Positions 42,770 to 45,886 of a DNA stretch of 64,000 bases are shown piece after piece. The translations under genes and the position numbers were made by a program. This DNA comes from Chloroflexota bacterium. Its GTDB lineage: Bacteria; Chloroflexota; Anaerolineae; Anaerolineales; UBA11858. Position 1 is the first letter of the stretch; each line of letters opens with the position of its first letter. The stretch is taken from positions 1,066 to 65,065 of the forward strand of contig JABGRQ010000077.1 of assembly GCA_018648225.1 (NCBI GenBank), given 5' to 3'. Below the pieces are notes generated by a model. The model searched no databases and had not been told where the DNA came from. It worked only from the letters and a program-made list of their open reading frames with translations.

Positions 42770-45700
42770 ATGTCCGACTTTCTCTTCCGCGGTACCATTG
42801 CCGATTTAGACCCCAAACTTGCTGATTTAACCGAAATTGAAGCCGAGCGCCAATATCGCAAGCTAATTTTGATCCCTAGCGAAAGTACTTCGCCGATGGC
42901 TGTGCGCGAAGCCCTCTCGACAGCCTTCCACAATATTTACGCCGAAGGCTATCCCTCCGAGCACACCCGCTGGCAAACCGAAGACGAAATCTTCGATTAT
43001 GACAACCGTCTCGCTGAAGATCGCCGCTATTCCGATCCGCGCTACTACAAAGGCGTGGAATACGCCAACGTGGTCGAAGCGCTGGCGCGCCGCCGCTGTG
43101 CCGAAGCCTTCGCCGCTACTGCCGAAGGTGTTGATGCCGATGATGTCTACGTTAACGTGCAGGCGCTCTCTGGCGGCCCGGCCAATAACGCCGTGTATCA
43201 CGCCCTCGTGCAGCCCGGCGATACCGTCATGGGCATGGATTTGCTCTTCGGCGGTCACCTGTCGCACGGTTCGCGTGTCAACCGTTCGGGCAAATACTAT
43301 AATATTGTCTCCTATTCGATTGACCCTGAAACTGAGCAAATCAATTACGATAACGTTGAAGCCATCGCCCTCGAGCACAAGCCCAAGATGATTATTGCCG
43401 GGGTCTCATCTTACCCCTGGCAGATTGACTGGAAACGCTTCCGCGAAATCGCCGACAAAGTTGGCGCATACCTGCTTACCGACATTGCCCACGTCGCTGG
43501 GCTGGTGGCCGCGGGTGTCTACCCCTCCCCGGTGGGCATCGCCGATGTGGTCTCATCCACCACGCACAAGACCCTCAACGGGCCGCGCGGCGCCATCCTG
43601 ATGACCACTGACCCCGTCATCGCCCGCAAACTCGACCGCGCCGTCTTTCCTGGTGAGCAAGGCGGGCCGCATGTTAATGTTTTCGCGGCCATGGCGCTGG
43701 CCTTCAAGATTGCTCAAACGGATCAATTTAAAGAGTTACAAACCCAGGTCGTGGCGAACTGCAAAGCCTTCACCGACCGCCTTGCTGAGCGCGGCTTCAC
43801 AATCCCCTTTGGCGGCACCAATACGCACCTGATGAATCTCGATACCAAATCCATCAAGGGCGCGGGTGGTGCCACCCTCAGCGGTGATCTGGCGGCTCGC
43901 CTACTCGATCTGGCGGGCATTACCACCAATCGCAACACCATCCCTGGCGACCGCTCGGCGCTGCGTCCTTCGGGCGTGCGCATGGGTATGCCCTGGGTCA
44001 CGCAGCGCGGCTTCAAGGAAAAAGAATCCATCGCCCTGGCCGATGCCATAGCCGATATTCTTTTGGCAGCCACGCCTTATTATCAGGGCAAGGCGCTGCG
44101 TGCCAAAGTTGATTTCGAAGCTTTCCAGAACGCCAAACTCAAAGTGCGTGAGCTTTCCACGCTGGCCGGGATTGACTTTGAACCCGGTTCGGCTGGGTAT
44201 CCGCATTTTTATTATTTGGATGATGAATATTCTGGCGACGTGGTGGCCTTCGATTTGGGCGGGGAACGCGTCCGGCAGTTTTTACACACCGTCATGGCGA
44301 GTGACGTGGACTCGCTCGGTGTGGGTGAGGCGCACTTCACGCGCTTTACTGCCCCCGGCGGCGAGATTCTCGCCACCCTGCGCTGCCTGGAATCGAAACT
44401 CTATCGCCTGAGCGTACCGGGCGAAAAGGCCGCTCTCACCGCCGCGTGGCTGCGCGATCTTTCGGATGGCTATGTCAAGTTTGATGACGACCTGCTGCGC
44501 AAAGTGCAGGGTCCGGTTTGGGTACGGCACTCCACCCAGCAGGCAGATGAACTTCCTGTCGCGGGTGTAGAAATCCCTGACAGTGGCAAACCTTGGTTTA
44601 TCGGCGTCACCTCCGGGGCTGGCGATCCTTTACCCGAATTCAAATGGGAAGAGAAAGAAGGCCCGATCCGCCGCACTTCGATTTATGATTTGCACGTTGA
44701 ATTGGGCGGGCGTATGGTTCCGTTTGCCGGGTGGGAAATGCCCGTGCGCTACGGCTCGGTGATGGAAGAGCACATGGCCGTGCGTGAAGCCGCCGGGATT
44801 TTCGACGCCGCCCACATGGGCGTGTATCAGGCCGAAGGCCCCGAAGCAGCGGCCTTTTTAGACAGCGTGTGTGGCAACGATGTCACTTCGTTGGGCGTGG
44901 GCCAATCGCTGTATACGCATTTCCTGACCCCCGATGCCGAAGTGATCGACGATCTGCTGATCTATCGCCGCGCAGATGAAGTCTATCTGGTGGTGGTCAA
45001 CGCCTCCAATGACGATAAAGACTGGGCCTGGCTCAACGCTGTGCGGGAGGGCAAAGTGAAAATTGACAACGCCCGCCCGTGGGCGCTGGCCTTTGGCCGC
45101 GGCGTGAACTTGCGCAACCTGCGCGACCCCAAGGAAGGCGCAGATATGCGTGTAGACATTCCTCTACAAGGCCCGCGCTCGCGCGACATTCTGCTGGCAA
45201 TGGGCGTGAGCGATGCCGACCGCAAGAAAATTATGAAACTCAAGCGCACCGAGTTGTGTGATGCCGTAGTCGGAGGGATTGATTTAATCGTCTCTCGCAC
45301 CGGTTACACCGGCGAAAAGATGGCCTTTGAATTGTTTGTACATCCCGACAAAGCCCAGGAACTCTTTAGAAAACTACTCGAAATTGGCAAGCCTTTTGGC
45401 CTGGTTCCGGTTGGTTTGGGTGCGCGCGATTCGCTGCGCACGGAAGCTGGTCTGCCGCTTTACGGCCACGAAATGGCTGGCGATTTAGGCAACGGTGTCG
45501 CCGAAGGCGGTTTTGGTTCTTATGTGAAGACCTATAAGCCATGGTTCATCGGGCGTGATTCTTTCCTGGCTCGTGAAGCCAAACGCAAGGGTATTGTGGT
45601 GCGCTTCCGCTTCGATGAGCAGCGCGTGCGCATGGCGCATCCCGGCGATCCGGTGGTAGATGACAAAGGGCGCGTGATTGGCACGGTCACAAGCTGCGCC

Positions 45701-45886
45701 GCGGATAGCGAAGGTTATTTGCTCGGTCAGGCTTTTGTGGATATGAAGTTCGCCAAGATGGATACGAAAATTTTCATCTATCAGGGTGCTCCGGACAAAG
45801 CCAGTAAATCGCCTGCTGAGTTGAGTGCGGGTGACCGCGTAACATTACCCGGCGCGGCAACGGTTTTGCGCCGCTTCCCGAAATAA
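42770..45886 (+). CDS. Fusion protein: serine hydroxymethyltransferase-like (N) - ~200-aa middle region - aminomethyltransferase / glycine-cleavage T protein (C)
   Basis: AGGAG RBS. SHMT motifs [15 protein letters not shown] and [13 protein letters not shown]. T-protein motifs [39 protein letters not shown] and [18 protein letters not shown]. It is a single uninterrupted 1,038-codon ORF. Confidence 0.85.
   Translation: [1038 protein letters not shown]

What the first reader, a model, noticed from the sequence alone, without database searches (positions are those of the whole stretch)
42770..45886. Single 1,038-aa fusion of serine hydroxymethyltransferase and glycine-cleavage T protein
One uninterrupted ORF holds three parts. 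First is an SHMT-like N-terminal ~450 aa with the PLP-lysine motif [13 protein letters not shown] and a ~25-aa insertion in the usually compact YAEGYP..RYY segment. Second is a ~200-aa middle region with faint T-protein-like character ([30 protein letters not shown]). Third is a complete aminomethyltransferase, running from [24 protein letters not shown] to the C-terminus. Both enzymes make or use 5,10-methylene-tetrahydrofolate. A fusion could channel it between glycine cleavage (or glycine synthesis in the reductive direction) and the glycine-to-serine conversion. The gcv operon 10 kb away has no gcvT, so this fusion is probably the only T protein for that system.
Basis: partly seen in the sequence, partly recalled or inferred. 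Interest (0 to 1): 0.7.

Follow-up and report, generated by a model that had tools for sequence, protein, structure and literature searches.

The report
Fused SHMT and glycine-cleavage T protein
One real gene joins two consecutive folate enzymes of glycine/serine metabolism, with a broken extra copy of part of the second enzyme between them. This design is shared by hundreds of Anaerolineae species and a few other phyla, but I found no paper describing it.

Summary
ORF 42770-45886 (+) encodes 1038 aa. It has a full SHMT domain (aa 1-433, above the Pfam and NCBIfam cut-offs) with its catalytic motifs intact, and a full GcvT aminomethyltransferase (aa 633-1038, above the TIGR00528 equivalog cut-off) with the catalytic Asp intact.

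The "faint" middle region is a true but truncated internal duplicate of the protein's own GcvT domain (hhalign 99.6%, E 4e-24; Foldseek hits to T-proteins). Its catalytic Asp pair is replaced by Ala-Thr. Longer relatives keep a nearly whole second T-like domain, so the family plan is SHMT, T' (degenerate), then T.

It is not an artefact. The identical protein occurs on 17 independent contigs, and 71 of 79 related loci carry an uninterrupted ORF of at least 1000 aa. At least 591 species genomes carry the family motif, including cultured Bellilinea, Longilinea and Thermanaerothrix. Distant members occur in Planctomycetota, Opitutales, Kiritimatiellia, SAR202 and Bipolaricaulaceae.

A glycine-riboswitch-controlled gcvH-gcvPA-gcvPB operon without gcvT lies 7.3 kb away, and this linkage recurs in relatives.

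The most likely function is a bifunctional enzyme coupling glycine cleavage to serine synthesis through 5,10-methylene-THF. Channelling, and being the sole SHMT or T protein, remain untested. The architecture is common in databases and generically annotated. I found no paper describing it.

The parts
42675..42703 (+). Promoter-like site TTGACC-17 nt-TACAAT in the 96-nt gap upstream of the fusion gene. AGGAG Shine-Dalgarno at 42759-42763.
   Evidence: Consensus scan and sequence. The match is to a consensus only. No riboswitch was found here.
42770..45886 (+). Whole fusion gene: 1038 aa, SHMT, then a degenerate T-like domain, then GcvT.
   Evidence: ORF; domain scans; identical protein on 17 independent contigs.
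42770..44068 (+). SHMT domain, aa 1-433. Motifs: YAEGYP 57-62, RYYKG 91-95, GGHLSHG 161-167, DIAHVAGL 238-245, TTHK with PLP-lysine K267 (nt 43568-43570), FPGEQGGP 293-300, NRNTIPGD 387-394, SGVRMG 401-406.
   Evidence: PF00464 E 2e-125; NF000586 434 bits against a cut-off of 335. Aligned to PDB SHMTs 5vmb and 2dkj. Foldseek TM-score of target 0.85 to bsSHMT and E. coli SHMT. Motif positions; invariance across relatives.
42956..43039 (+). Family-specific insertion (aa 63-90, 28 residues between the motifs; a 26-residue gap in the alignment) between YAEGYP and RYY. In known SHMTs this loop carries active-site and folate-site Tyr/Glu residues.
   Evidence: Gap against 5vmb. Present in all 16 diverse fusion proteins. 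AF2 confidence is low here.
44069..44233 (+). Extension after SHMT (aa 434-488): a beta-hairpin, a long helix, then a loop carrying the invariant GYPHF (476-480).
   Evidence: AF2 secondary structure; invariant columns. No family or PDB sequence match.
44234..44542 (+). Degenerate T-like subdomain (aa 489-591). It is a truncated duplicate of this protein's own GcvT residues 681-787. The catalytic 'VIDDL' is 'ILATL' here. The family signature WLRDLSDGY lies at aa 560-568.
   Evidence: BLASTP E 4e-9. hhalign 99.6%, E 4e-24. hmmsearch against the GcvT profile matches positions 52-150. Foldseek hits to 1yx2, 3a8k and 1woo over about 100 columns at rmsd 2.5-3.4 A.
44543..44665 (+). Linker (aa 592-632) containing KPWFIG (607-612). 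This repeats the KPWFIG at aa 923-928 that opens the C-terminal barrel of the real T domain.
   Evidence: weak second matches of several relatives' middle regions, not the window's own, to profile positions about 288-302. AF2 confidence is low.
44666..45886 (+). GcvT aminomethyltransferase (aa 633-1038). Motifs: FAGWEMPV 652-659, FDAAHMG 678-684, VIDDL 725-729 (D727 corresponds to E. coli D97; nt 44948-44950), VVNAS 742-746, SRTGYTGE 842-849, GLGARDSLR 882-890. A family-specific insertion lies at about aa 765-797.
   Evidence: PF01571 E 5e-76; TIGR00528 258.7 bits against 235.85. PDB 1yx2 E 5e-62, plus 1woo and 1vlo/3a8i. Motifs.
45970..48132 (+). 720-aa predicted membrane protein with no family match. 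In this lineage it sits between the fusion and its usual downstream partner.
   Evidence: No Pfam or NCBIfam hit. A homologue is present in only 4 of 85 loci.
48167..49387 (+). Class I/II (Aro8/LysN-type) aminotransferase. In most relatives it is the gene directly downstream of the fusion.
   Evidence: PF00155. PDB best hits: 1x0m/3aov, multiple-substrate aminotransferase 1wst, 2-aminoadipate aminotransferase 2egy, alanine:glyoxylate transaminase 2zc0. Downstream on the same strand in 59 of 85 loci.
53179..54645 (-). gcvPB (P-protein subunit 2).
   Evidence: NF003346 718 bits against a cut-off of 441.
54638..55981 (-). gcvPA (P-protein subunit 1).
   Evidence: NF001696 613 bits against a cut-off of 364.
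56068..56451 (-). gcvH (lipoyl carrier H protein), 127 aa as called in public assemblies. The mechanical ORF extends to 56556.
   Evidence: TIGR00527 134 bits against 115.85. Gene call in L086.
56555..56591 (-). Terminator-like hairpin followed by a run of eight U, between the riboswitch and gcvH. It is the likely expression platform.
   Evidence: Sequence. Fold -19.6 kcal/mol, z-score -1.9.
56675..56785 (-). Glycine riboswitch aptamer upstream of gcvH-gcvPA-gcvPB.
   Evidence: RF00504 61.4 bits against a gathering score of 32. The same element sits before gcvH in L004, L010, L024 and L039.

Best explanation
The gene encodes a bifunctional folate enzyme. Its C-terminal domain acts as the T protein of the glycine cleavage system. 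It takes the aminomethyl group from lipoyl-GcvH, which is loaded by GcvPA/PB from the nearby glycine-riboswitch-induced operon that lacks its own gcvT. It transfers that group to tetrahydrofolate, releasing NH3 and forming 5,10-methylene-THF. The N-terminal SHMT domain, presumably a dimer as in all known SHMTs, uses that methylene-THF with a second glycine to make serine and regenerate THF. The net reaction is 2 glycine -> serine + CO2 + NH3 + 2[H], and every step is reversible. Fusing the two enzymes fixes a 1:1 ratio and holds the two folate sites close together, so the cofactor can cycle locally. The middle region is a truncated, catalytically dead copy of the T fold. It most likely serves as a structural spacer or docking element rather than a catalyst.

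Shown here: the domain identities, the intact catalytic motifs, the origin of the middle region, the conservation of the fusion, and its linkage to gcvH/gcvP. Inferred: both enzyme activities, the partnership with GcvH, proximity coupling or channelling, and the role of the middle domain.
For: Domain identity:
- Both domains exceed curated family cut-offs.
- Their best PDB relatives are genuine SHMTs and genuine GCS T-proteins.

Catalytic motifs:
- The motifs checked are present and invariant across 25 relatives of 65-88% identity: the PLP-lysine K267 in TTHK, YAEGYP/RYY, the D238/H241 motif, R404, and T-domain D727/D728, N744, SRTGYTGE and GLGARDSLR.
- SHMT is the best-conserved part of the protein: 64-94% identity, against 41-80% for the middle region.

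Link to the glycine cleavage genes:
- The only gcv genes in the window are gcvH-PA-PB with no gcvT, 7.3 kb away, behind a glycine riboswitch and a terminator-like hairpin.
- gcvPB (14 loci), gcvPA (11) and gcvH (7) recur near the fusion among the 85 loci. None of these operons has an adjacent gcvT, and the riboswitch is present in all four of the relatives' gcvH-containing loci that were scanned.
- No stand-alone SHMT or GcvT occurs within about 9 kb of any of the 85 fusion loci.

Fusion under selection:
- 71 of 79 loci have an intact ORF of at least 1000 aa.
- About 70 full-length representatives exist at 50% clustering.

Middle region:
- It is a T-fold duplicate lacking the catalytic Asp.
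Against: - No enzyme activity, oligomeric state or GcvH interaction was measured.
- I could not scan any whole genome, so separate housekeeping glyA or gcvT genes may exist.
- The fusion is not under the glycine riboswitch, here or in 7 relatives. Only a minority of loci (14 of 85) keep gcvP close by.
- The GCV_T_C barrel scores below the Pfam threshold (19.9 against 25.9), and the NF001567 GcvT subfamily cut-off is not reached (278 against 300).
- The AF2 monomer model is of moderate quality (pLDDT 73, pTM 0.61). The tool gives no inter-domain geometry, so proximity of the two folate sites is not shown.
- From my own recollection, not checked here: studies of plant mitochondria found that glycine decarboxylase and SHMT couple through free folate without channelling.
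Confidence: 0.7

Rival explanations
1. The protein is the same bifunctional enzyme, but it works mainly in the reductive (glycine synthase) direction as part of a reductive-glycine-type route. The T domain and GcvH/P would make glycine from methylene-THF, CO2 and NH3, and the SHMT domain would add a second methylene-THF to give serine.
For: All steps are reversible (established biochemistry). The fusion also occurs in lineages such as Candidatus Bipolaricaulaceae, which I recall, without having checked, are discussed as having C1 metabolism. In L004 a pterin-binding/CdhD-like gene and a 2-oxoacid:ferredoxin oxidoreductase lie just upstream.
Against: The partner gcvH-PA-PB operon is preceded by a glycine aptamer and a terminator-like hairpin. 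That arrangement is classically turned on by glycine to remove excess glycine (general knowledge of gcvT riboswitches). The window contains no formate-THF ligase, folD or formate dehydrogenase.
Confidence: 0.12
2. The fusion is a specialised paralogue rather than the housekeeping SHMT and T protein. Canonical glyA and gcvT would exist elsewhere in the genome. This protein would then serve another folate-dependent reaction, for example a T-like demethylase or aminomethyl acceptor feeding an aldolase-type SHMT reaction, possibly together with the conserved downstream aminotransferase.
For: - The T fold is used by many non-GCS enzymes (DmdA, DMGDH, sarcosine oxidase, TMAO demethylase), all of which are weaker hits.
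- The most conserved neighbour is an Aro8/LysN-type aminotransferase (59 of 85 loci), not gcvH/P.
- Some genomes carry two fusion copies (L028, L070; L017 and L021 come from one MAG).
- Some distant members have lost catalytic residues (P0181, P0188, P0193).
Against: - The TIGR00528 equivalog cut-off for GcvT is passed.
- The best structural relatives are true GCS T-proteins, far ahead of the demethylases: E 5e-62 against 1e-27 or worse.
- The SHMT domain is canonical in every motif checked.
- The neighbouring gcv operons consistently lack gcvT.
Confidence: 0.15
3. The long ORF is an assembly or sequencing artefact: a lost stop codon, a frameshift, or a chimeric join of adjacent glyA and gcvT genes.
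For: Eight of 79 related loci have ORFs shorter than 1000 aa around the motif. Seven of the eight are 'MFD' MAG assemblies.
Against: - The identical 1038-aa protein is found on 17 contigs from independent ENA, JGI and Logan assemblies.
- More than 120 full-length clusters exist at 65-100% identity.
- 71 of 79 loci are intact.
- The fusion is present in cultured isolates.
- A conserved 200-aa middle region with its own invariant motifs joins the two halves.
Confidence: 0.01

Closest known systems
Stand-alone bacterial serine hydroxymethyltransferase GlyA (e.g. E. coli 1DFO, Geobacillus stearothermophilus 1KKJ, Thermus 2DKJ)
   Same: The fold-type I PLP domain covers the full length at about 41-42% identity, and the TM-score of the target is about 0.85. 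The PLP-lysine motif TTHK, YAEGYP/RYY, GGHL(S/T)HG, D-x-x-H, FPGxQGGP and the carboxylate-binding Arg are all present.
   Different: It carries a 26-28-residue insertion in the YAEGYP-RYY loop and a 9-residue insertion near aa 114-123. A hairpin-helix extension follows the domain. About 600 further residues are covalently attached.
Glycine cleavage system T protein GcvT (B. subtilis 1YX2, T. maritima 1WOO, E. coli 1VLO/3A8I)
   Same: The match covers the full length, including the C-terminal barrel. The TIGR00528 cut-off is passed. The catalytic Asp (E. coli D97, here D727), VVNA, RTGYTGE and GLGARDxLR are conserved. It is genomically linked to gcvH/gcvP.
   Different: It is not a separate gene in the gcv operon. 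It has an insertion of about 30 residues (aa 765-797). It is preceded by a truncated duplicate of its own residues 49-155. It is not under the glycine riboswitch.
Enzymes with a catalytic domain fused to a T-like folate domain: dimethylglycine oxidase/dehydrogenase (1PJ5, 4PAB), heterotetrameric sarcosine oxidase alpha (1VRQ, 2GAG), TMAO demethylase (9Q5A)
   Same: A GCV_T-fold folate domain is covalently joined to a partner domain that handles the same one-carbon unit. As I recall, but did not check here, dimethylglycine oxidase passes the C1 unit through an internal channel. All of these appear as weaker homologues of the C-terminal domain.
   Different: In those enzymes the partner is a flavin or metal oxidase or demethylase, and the species handed over is an iminium or formaldehyde. 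Here the partner is a PLP enzyme, and the shared species would be the folate cofactor itself (methylene-THF/THF). None of them has a tandem T'-T arrangement.
Glycine decarboxylase plus SHMT coupling in plant mitochondria (photorespiration), as separate proteins
   Same: The two reactions run in series with the same net chemistry (2 Gly -> Ser + CO2 + NH3 + NADH), linked by the THF/methylene-THF pair (established biochemistry).
   Different: In plants the enzymes are separate polypeptides. Here T and SHMT form one chain, while P and H are encoded separately and induced by glycine.
Other bifunctional folate enzymes (DHFR-TS, FolD, formiminotransferase-cyclodeaminase)
   Same: Consecutive folate-dependent steps are joined on one polypeptide. 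Some of these, as I recall but did not check here, show demonstrated channelling of the folate intermediate.
   Different: The domains and chemistry are unrelated, and there is no homology. This is only a functional analogy.

Membership tests
Serine hydroxymethyltransferase (PF00464 / NF000586) | Profile score above the curated cut-off | tested here: met
   PF00464 418.9 bits (gathering score 27). NF000586 434.3 bits (cut-off 335).
Serine hydroxymethyltransferase (PF00464 / NF000586) | PLP-binding lysine in the T-T-H-K motif, plus the Asp/His motif that contacts PLP | tested here: met
   TTHK 264-267 (K267) and DIAHVAGL 238-245. Both are invariant in 25 relatives and align to 5vmb and 2dkj.
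Serine hydroxymethyltransferase (PF00464 / NF000586) | Active-site and folate-site Tyr-x-Glu and Tyr-Tyr (bsSHMT Y51/E53/Y60/Y61), and the substrate-carboxylate Arg | tested here: met
   Y57/E59 in YAEGYP, Y92/Y93 in RYY, and R404 in SGVRMG are present and invariant. The two Tyr motifs are separated by a 28-residue insertion (aa 63-90; a 26-residue alignment gap). Its structural effect is unknown because AF2 pLDDT is below 50 there.
Serine hydroxymethyltransferase (PF00464 / NF000586) | Dimeric assembly and THF-dependent Ser<->Gly activity | not testable with these tools
   Requires biochemistry or a multimer structure.
Glycine cleavage T protein GcvT (PF01571+PF08669 / TIGR00528) | Folate-binding domain profile and equivalog model above cut-off | tested here: met
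   PF01571 255.7 bits (gathering score 25.6). TIGR00528 258.7 bits (cut-off 235.85). However, subfamily model NF001567 scores 277.8, below its cut-off of 300.
Glycine cleavage T protein GcvT (PF01571+PF08669 / TIGR00528) | C-terminal barrel domain (PF08669) | tested here: inconclusive
   PF08669 scores 19.9 bits, below the gathering score of 25.9. The region still aligns with 1yx2 to residue 344 and with 1v5v to residue 373, and AF2 predicts beta-strands at aa 941-1033.
Glycine cleavage T protein GcvT (PF01571+PF08669 / TIGR00528) | Catalytic Asp (E. coli D97) and conserved VVNA / RTGYTGE / GLGARDxLR motifs | tested here: met
   D727 corresponds to E. coli D97 by the 1vlo alignment. The motifs are listed and are invariant in relatives.
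Glycine cleavage T protein GcvT (PF01571+PF08669 / TIGR00528) | Genomic association with gcvH and gcvP | tested here: met
   gcvH-PA-PB lies 7.3 kb downstream with no gcvT. gcvPB lies within 10 kb in 14 of 85 loci. The linkage is loose: the genes are not in one operon.
Glycine cleavage T protein GcvT (PF01571+PF08669 / TIGR00528) | GcvH-dependent aminomethyl transfer to THF | not testable with these tools
   Requires an enzyme assay with cognate lipoylated GcvH.
T-fold demethylases and oxidase-linked T domains (DmdA, DMGDH, SoxA, Tdm, LigM) | Equivalog or subfamily model above cut-off | tested here: not met
   TmaoDeMthMsil 148 against 1100; soxA 107 against 1164; DmdA 51 against 410; DesA 39 against 800; LigM 36 against 580.
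Middle region as a functional T protein | Complete folate-binding domain with the catalytic Asp | tested here: not met
   Only profile positions 52-150 of 407 are matched. The Asp-Asp pair is Ala-Thr (ILATL 533-537).

The most novel reading that the evidence does not exclude
The SHMT-T'-T protein is the sole SHMT and the sole T protein of Anaerolineae and of the other carrier lineages. It works as a dedicated channelling machine: a single, probably polyglutamylated, folate stays bound and shuttles between the T and SHMT active sites. The degenerate T' domain and the two family-specific insertions (in the SHMT Tyr loop and at GcvT aa 765-797) would build the interface, folate tether or GcvH dock. 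That would make it a natural 'glycine-to-serine module', and it could be used directly to engineer the reductive glycine pathway.
Probability: 0.25. Interest if true: 0.7.

Novelty: new variant of a known kind. Interest (0 to 1): 0.45.

Why it matters
SHMT and the glycine cleavage system are the two main gateways between amino-acid metabolism and the folate one-carbon pool. They also form the core of the natural and synthetic reductive glycine pathway. A natural covalent fusion of SHMT with the T protein is conserved in hundreds of species and carries an extra vestigial T-like domain and two lineage-specific insertions. It offers a ready test case for an old and unsettled question: whether methylene-THF is channelled between these enzymes.

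It also matters for annotation. Pipelines name the protein either 'GcvT' or 'SHMT'. Metabolic reconstructions of Anaerolineae, Planctomycetota, Bipolaricaulaceae and similar MAGs may therefore score one of the two functions as missing.

The chemistry is entirely conventional and fusions among folate enzymes are common. This is a noteworthy variant, not a new principle.

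Tried and rejected
1. Literature. Seven full-text searches combined SHMT/GlyA, GcvT/aminomethyltransferase/T-protein, fusion/fused/bifunctional, Chloroflexi/Anaerolineae and reductive glycine pathway. I spot-read three papers. None mentions this fusion. 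In the ones read, 'fusion' referred to mass spectrometers or to other folate genes.

2. Solved structures. No PDB chain combines the two domains. Among the best 60 sequence matches listed the longest chain is 513 aa, and the longest of the top 50 Foldseek targets is 475 aa.

3. Regulatory RNA before the fusion. Rfam at gathering threshold on the window and on 7 loci, and at E<=1 on 42550-42900, found nothing there.

4. A second SHMT or GcvT. tblastn found none in the window or in the flanks of 85 loci. Extending 10 kb past the right end found none. The left-end extension failed because the ORF as translated is not on record.

5. Whole-genome absence of stand-alone glyA and gcvT could not be tested.

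6. Inter-domain geometry. The structure tool returns no coordinates or PAE, so the distance between the two folate sites could not be measured.

7. The idea that the middle region is a novel domain was rejected in favour of a truncated T duplicate.

8. Frameshift or chimera was rejected.

9. Apparent 'stand-alone' short hits in the representative search are uninformative. P0187 stops inside the post-SHMT extension and looks like a contig-end fragment. P0243 has degenerate catalytic motifs.

Full report
**Observation.** The window carries an uninterrupted ORF at 42770..45886 on the plus strand, with an ATG start and 1038 aa. An AGGAG ribosome-binding site sits 7 nt upstream, and a promoter-like TTGACC-17-TACAAT lies in the 96-nt gap after the preceding alpha/beta-hydrolase gene. 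G+C content is even across the gene, 0.555-0.560. Pfam finds SHMT (E 2e-125), GCV_T (E 5e-76) and a sub-threshold GCV_T_C. NCBIfam places the N-terminal part above the SHMT cut-off (434 against 335 bits). It places the C-terminal part above the TIGR00528 GcvT equivalog cut-off (258.7 against 235.85), although below the NF001567 subfamily cut-off.

**Not an artefact.** The identical protein is encoded on 17 contigs from independent ENA, JGI and Logan assemblies with the same neighbours. More than 120 clusters at 90% identity are full length (1034-1067 aa, 65-100% identity), and all carry both Pfam domains. The best 80 are all Anaerolineae or Chloroflexota. They include the cultured Thermanaerothrix solaris, T. 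daxensis, Bellilinea caldifistulae and Longilinea arvoryzae. Of 79 motif-bearing ORFs not cut by a locus end, 71 are at least 1000 aa. Seven of the eight shorter ones are in 'MFD' MAG assemblies, so sequencing or assembly errors are a plausible cause that I did not check.

**The SHMT part (aa 1-433).** It aligns end to end with solved bacterial SHMTs (5vmb, 2dkj, 1dfo) at about 41-42% identity, and the TM-score of the target is about 0.85. The following are present, and all are invariant across 25 relatives:
- the PLP-lysine (K267 in TTHK);
- YAEGYP and RYY, which are the Tyr/Glu/Tyr-Tyr positions mutated in the bsSHMT and E. coli entries listed;
- GGHLSHG, D238-x-x-H241 and FPGEQGGP;
- the Arg of SGVRMG.

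The YAEGYP-RYY loop carries an insertion. It shows as a 26-residue gap against 5vmb, with 28 residues (aa 63-90) lying between the two motifs. Every fusion protein examined has it, across phyla.

**The GcvT part (aa 633-1038).** Its best solved relatives are true glycine-cleavage T proteins: B. subtilis 1yx2 (E 5e-62), T. maritima 1woo, and E. coli 1vlo/3a8i. They are far ahead of TMAO demethylase, dimethylglycine oxidase/dehydrogenase, sarcosine oxidase and DmdA. Using the 1vlo alignment, E. coli D97 (the residue mutated in PDB 3a8k) corresponds to D727 of VIDDL. [12 protein letters not shown] and GLGARDSLR are also kept. A family-wide insertion lies at about aa 765-797.

**The middle region (aa 434-632).**
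- BLASTP of the middle against the protein's own C-terminal domain gives 32% identity over 78 residues, E 4e-9.
- Profile-profile alignment gives 99.6% probability, E 4e-24, pairing aa 489-591 with aa 681-787.
- An AF2 model of the middle region alone (pLDDT 79) finds T-proteins as its top Foldseek hits, over about 100 columns at rmsd 2.5-3.4 A.
- The catalytic Asp-Asp is Ala-Thr in this copy (ILATL).
- A second KPWFIG at aa 607-612 mirrors the motif that opens the C-terminal barrel of the real T domain.
- In longer relatives (1215-1339 aa) the middle region matches about 250-300 of the 407 positions of the T profile (positions 1-304 and 2-301 in P0134 and P0129, 22-268 in P0156), which amounts to a largely complete second T-like folate domain. 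Short forms such as this one keep only positions about 50-150, and several, though not this one, also show a weak match to the KP(W/Y/F)FIG remnant.

The family plan is therefore SHMT, T' (degenerate), then T. The middle region is under selection: GYPHF, [9 protein letters not shown], K578/G581/P582 and K607/P608 are invariant.

**Distribution.** An exhaustive HMMER search of 1.84 billion representatives at 50% identity returns about 70 full-length fusion representatives, 1027-1339 aa long and 34-61% identical. Eight sampled members all show SHMT plus GCV_T. Source names for distant members include Kiritimatiellia, Opitutales, the SAR202 cluster, Planctomycetota and Candidatus Bipolaricaulaceae. 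A few distant members (P0181, P0188, P0193) have lost catalytic residues in one or both halves.

**Genomic context.** The window holds gcvPB, gcvPA and gcvH on the minus strand, 7.3 kb downstream of the fusion. They lie behind a glycine riboswitch (61.4 bits) and a terminator-like hairpin with a U8 tail, and there is no gcvT. tblastn with the fusion finds no other SHMT or GcvT in the 64 kb.

Across 85 loci:
- every SHMT or GcvT hit belongs to a fusion;
- gcvPB, gcvPA and gcvH lie within 10 kb in 14, 11 and 7 loci respectively, always without gcvT;
- at least five of the gcvH-containing loci have more than 2 kb of sequence upstream of gcvH.

The glycine riboswitch precedes gcvH in all four of the relatives' gcvH-containing loci that were scanned (L004, L010, L024, L039). 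It never precedes the fusion. No Rfam family matches upstream of the fusion here, even at E<=1.

The most conserved neighbour is an Aro8/LysN-type aminotransferase directly downstream, in 59 of 85 loci. In this window a 720-aa membrane protein of no known family separates the two genes. The aminotransferase's best solved relatives are broad-specificity archaeal and Thermus enzymes, including 2-aminoadipate aminotransferase and an alanine:glyoxylate transaminase.

**Mechanism.** Shown here: two complete domains, each keeping the catalytic motifs checked; a dead T-like spacer; strong conservation of the fused state; and recurrent, loose linkage to a glycine-induced gcvH-gcvP operon that has no T gene.

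From established biochemistry, T converts aminomethyl-lipoyl-H and THF into methylene-THF and NH3. SHMT uses methylene-THF with glycine to give serine and THF. The fused protein would therefore cycle the cofactor between its two sites, with net 2 Gly -> Ser + CO2 + NH3 + reducing equivalents.

The regulatory split also fits. P and H are switched on by glycine. The fusion has its own promoter-like site and no riboswitch, as expected if its SHMT half is needed at all times. That last point is inference.

True channelling, the dimeric state, the roles of the T' domain and the two insertions, and whether the fusion is the only SHMT or T in the genome are all untested. The AF2 monomer model is moderate (pLDDT 73, pTM 0.61) and gives no usable inter-domain geometry.

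**Rivals.**
- Operation in the reductive, glycine-synthase direction is chemically possible, but the glycine-responsive control of gcvH/P disfavours it.
- A specialised paralogue, with canonical glyA and gcvT elsewhere, cannot be excluded without whole genomes. The stronger linkage to the aminotransferase than to gcvH/P, and the occasional second copies (L028, L070; L017 and L021 from one MAG), give it some weight. The passed GcvT equivalog score and the gcv operons lacking T argue against it.
- An assembly artefact is excluded.

**Comparison with known systems and novelty.** Each half is an ordinary member of its family (see the membership table). The whole protein resembles known fusions of a C1-handling catalytic domain to a T-fold folate domain (dimethylglycine oxidase/dehydrogenase, sarcosine oxidase alpha, TMAO demethylase). 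In function it resembles the unfused GDC-SHMT couple of plant mitochondria. It differs in three ways: the partner is a PLP enzyme, the shared species is the folate cofactor itself, and there is a tandem T'-T arrangement.

The protein is already present in RefSeq and GenBank, where it is named either 'GcvT' or 'serine hydroxymethyltransferase'. It is therefore not new to databases. I found no paper describing it in seven searches of the held library and no solved structure. I could not query a domain-architecture database.

I rate it a new variant of a known kind and of moderate interest. It is a clean, widespread and testable natural case for folate coupling between glycine cleavage and SHMT, and a known trap for automated annotation. 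It uses conventional chemistry.

Noticed in passing
window 56555-56785 (-): Rfam calls one glycine aptamer (56675-56785). Directly 3' of it, at about 56600-56670, the sequence looks by eye like a second aptamer (CUCUGGAAAG...CACCGACGGGGCAA...CUCUCAGG...GACAGAG). A GC-rich hairpin and a U8 run follow (56555-56591). This would be a tandem riboswitch with a terminator platform, but Rfam did not report the second copy even at E<=1.
   Followed up: partly
window 48167-49387 (+); 59 of 85 related loci: An Aro8/LysN-type class I/II aminotransferase is the most conserved neighbour of the fusion, directly downstream on the same strand. Its solved relatives include 2-aminoadipate aminotransferase and an alanine:glyoxylate transaminase. 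It may feed glycine (from glyoxylate) to the fusion or drain serine from it. Its substrate is unknown.
   Followed up: partly
window 45970-48132 (+): A 720-aa, apparently polytopic membrane protein with no Pfam or NCBIfam match sits between the fusion and the aminotransferase. A homologue occurs in only 4 of 85 loci, so it looks like a lineage-specific insertion into a conserved gene pair.
   Followed up: no
window 16298-41721 (+): There are three sets of xanthine-dehydrogenase-family molybdoenzyme genes (FAD, 2Fe-2S and MoCo subunits): 16298-20450, 28009-31975, and 34474-35961 with 39490-41721. With them lie XdhC (33669-34469), an amidohydrolase (20894-22426), an EamA transporter and a DUF6909 protein (37709-39421). 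This may be a purine or N-heterocycle catabolic island, and anaerobic purine breakdown can yield glycine. The link to the fusion is speculative.
   Followed up: no
window 22513-27612 (+): A coenzyme F420 biosynthesis cluster: an F420-dependent NADP oxidoreductase-like gene, an F420-0:gamma-glutamyl ligase (CofE), a nitroreductase-family (FbiB-C-like) gene, CofD and CofC. A luciferase-like (probably F420-dependent) oxidoreductase follows.
   Followed up: no
window 51345-53090 (-); 38 of 85 related loci: A 570-581-aa protein combines a TGS domain with a uridine-kinase/phosphoribulokinase-family domain. It is conserved between the fusion/aminotransferase pair and gcvPB. Its function, and any relation to glycine metabolism, are unknown.
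   Followed up: no
L028 and L070 (two copies about 7 kb apart); L017+L021 and L048+L051 (same MAGs): Some Anaerolineae genomes carry two full SHMT-T'-T genes, each 63-70% identical to the window protein across the SHMT and GcvT parts in L028/L070. This hints at sub-functionalised paralogues.
   Followed up: no
proteins P0181, P0188, P0193, P0243 (distant relatives): Some distant family members have degenerate catalytic motifs. Examples are TTYK for TTHK, FPGLQSAP for [8 protein letters not shown], LSD or VAD for the Asp-Asp pair, and loss of FDxSHMG and GLGARD. These look like pseudo-enzyme derivatives of the fusion.
   Followed up: partly
window 43-4962 (+): A 1639-aa signalling protein combines GGDEF, a receiver domain, PAS and GAF repeats and an HD-GYP-type HD_5 domain. 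An ABC substrate-binding protein and a Cache/HAMP/PAS histidine kinase follow.
   Followed up: no
window 49972-51321 (-): A 449-aa malic-enzyme-like protein matches only the N-terminal half of the 764-position NADP-malic enzyme model (225 against a cut-off of 1178 bits), so it lacks the PTA-like C-terminal domain. It is conserved near the fusion in 9 of 85 loci.
   Followed up: no
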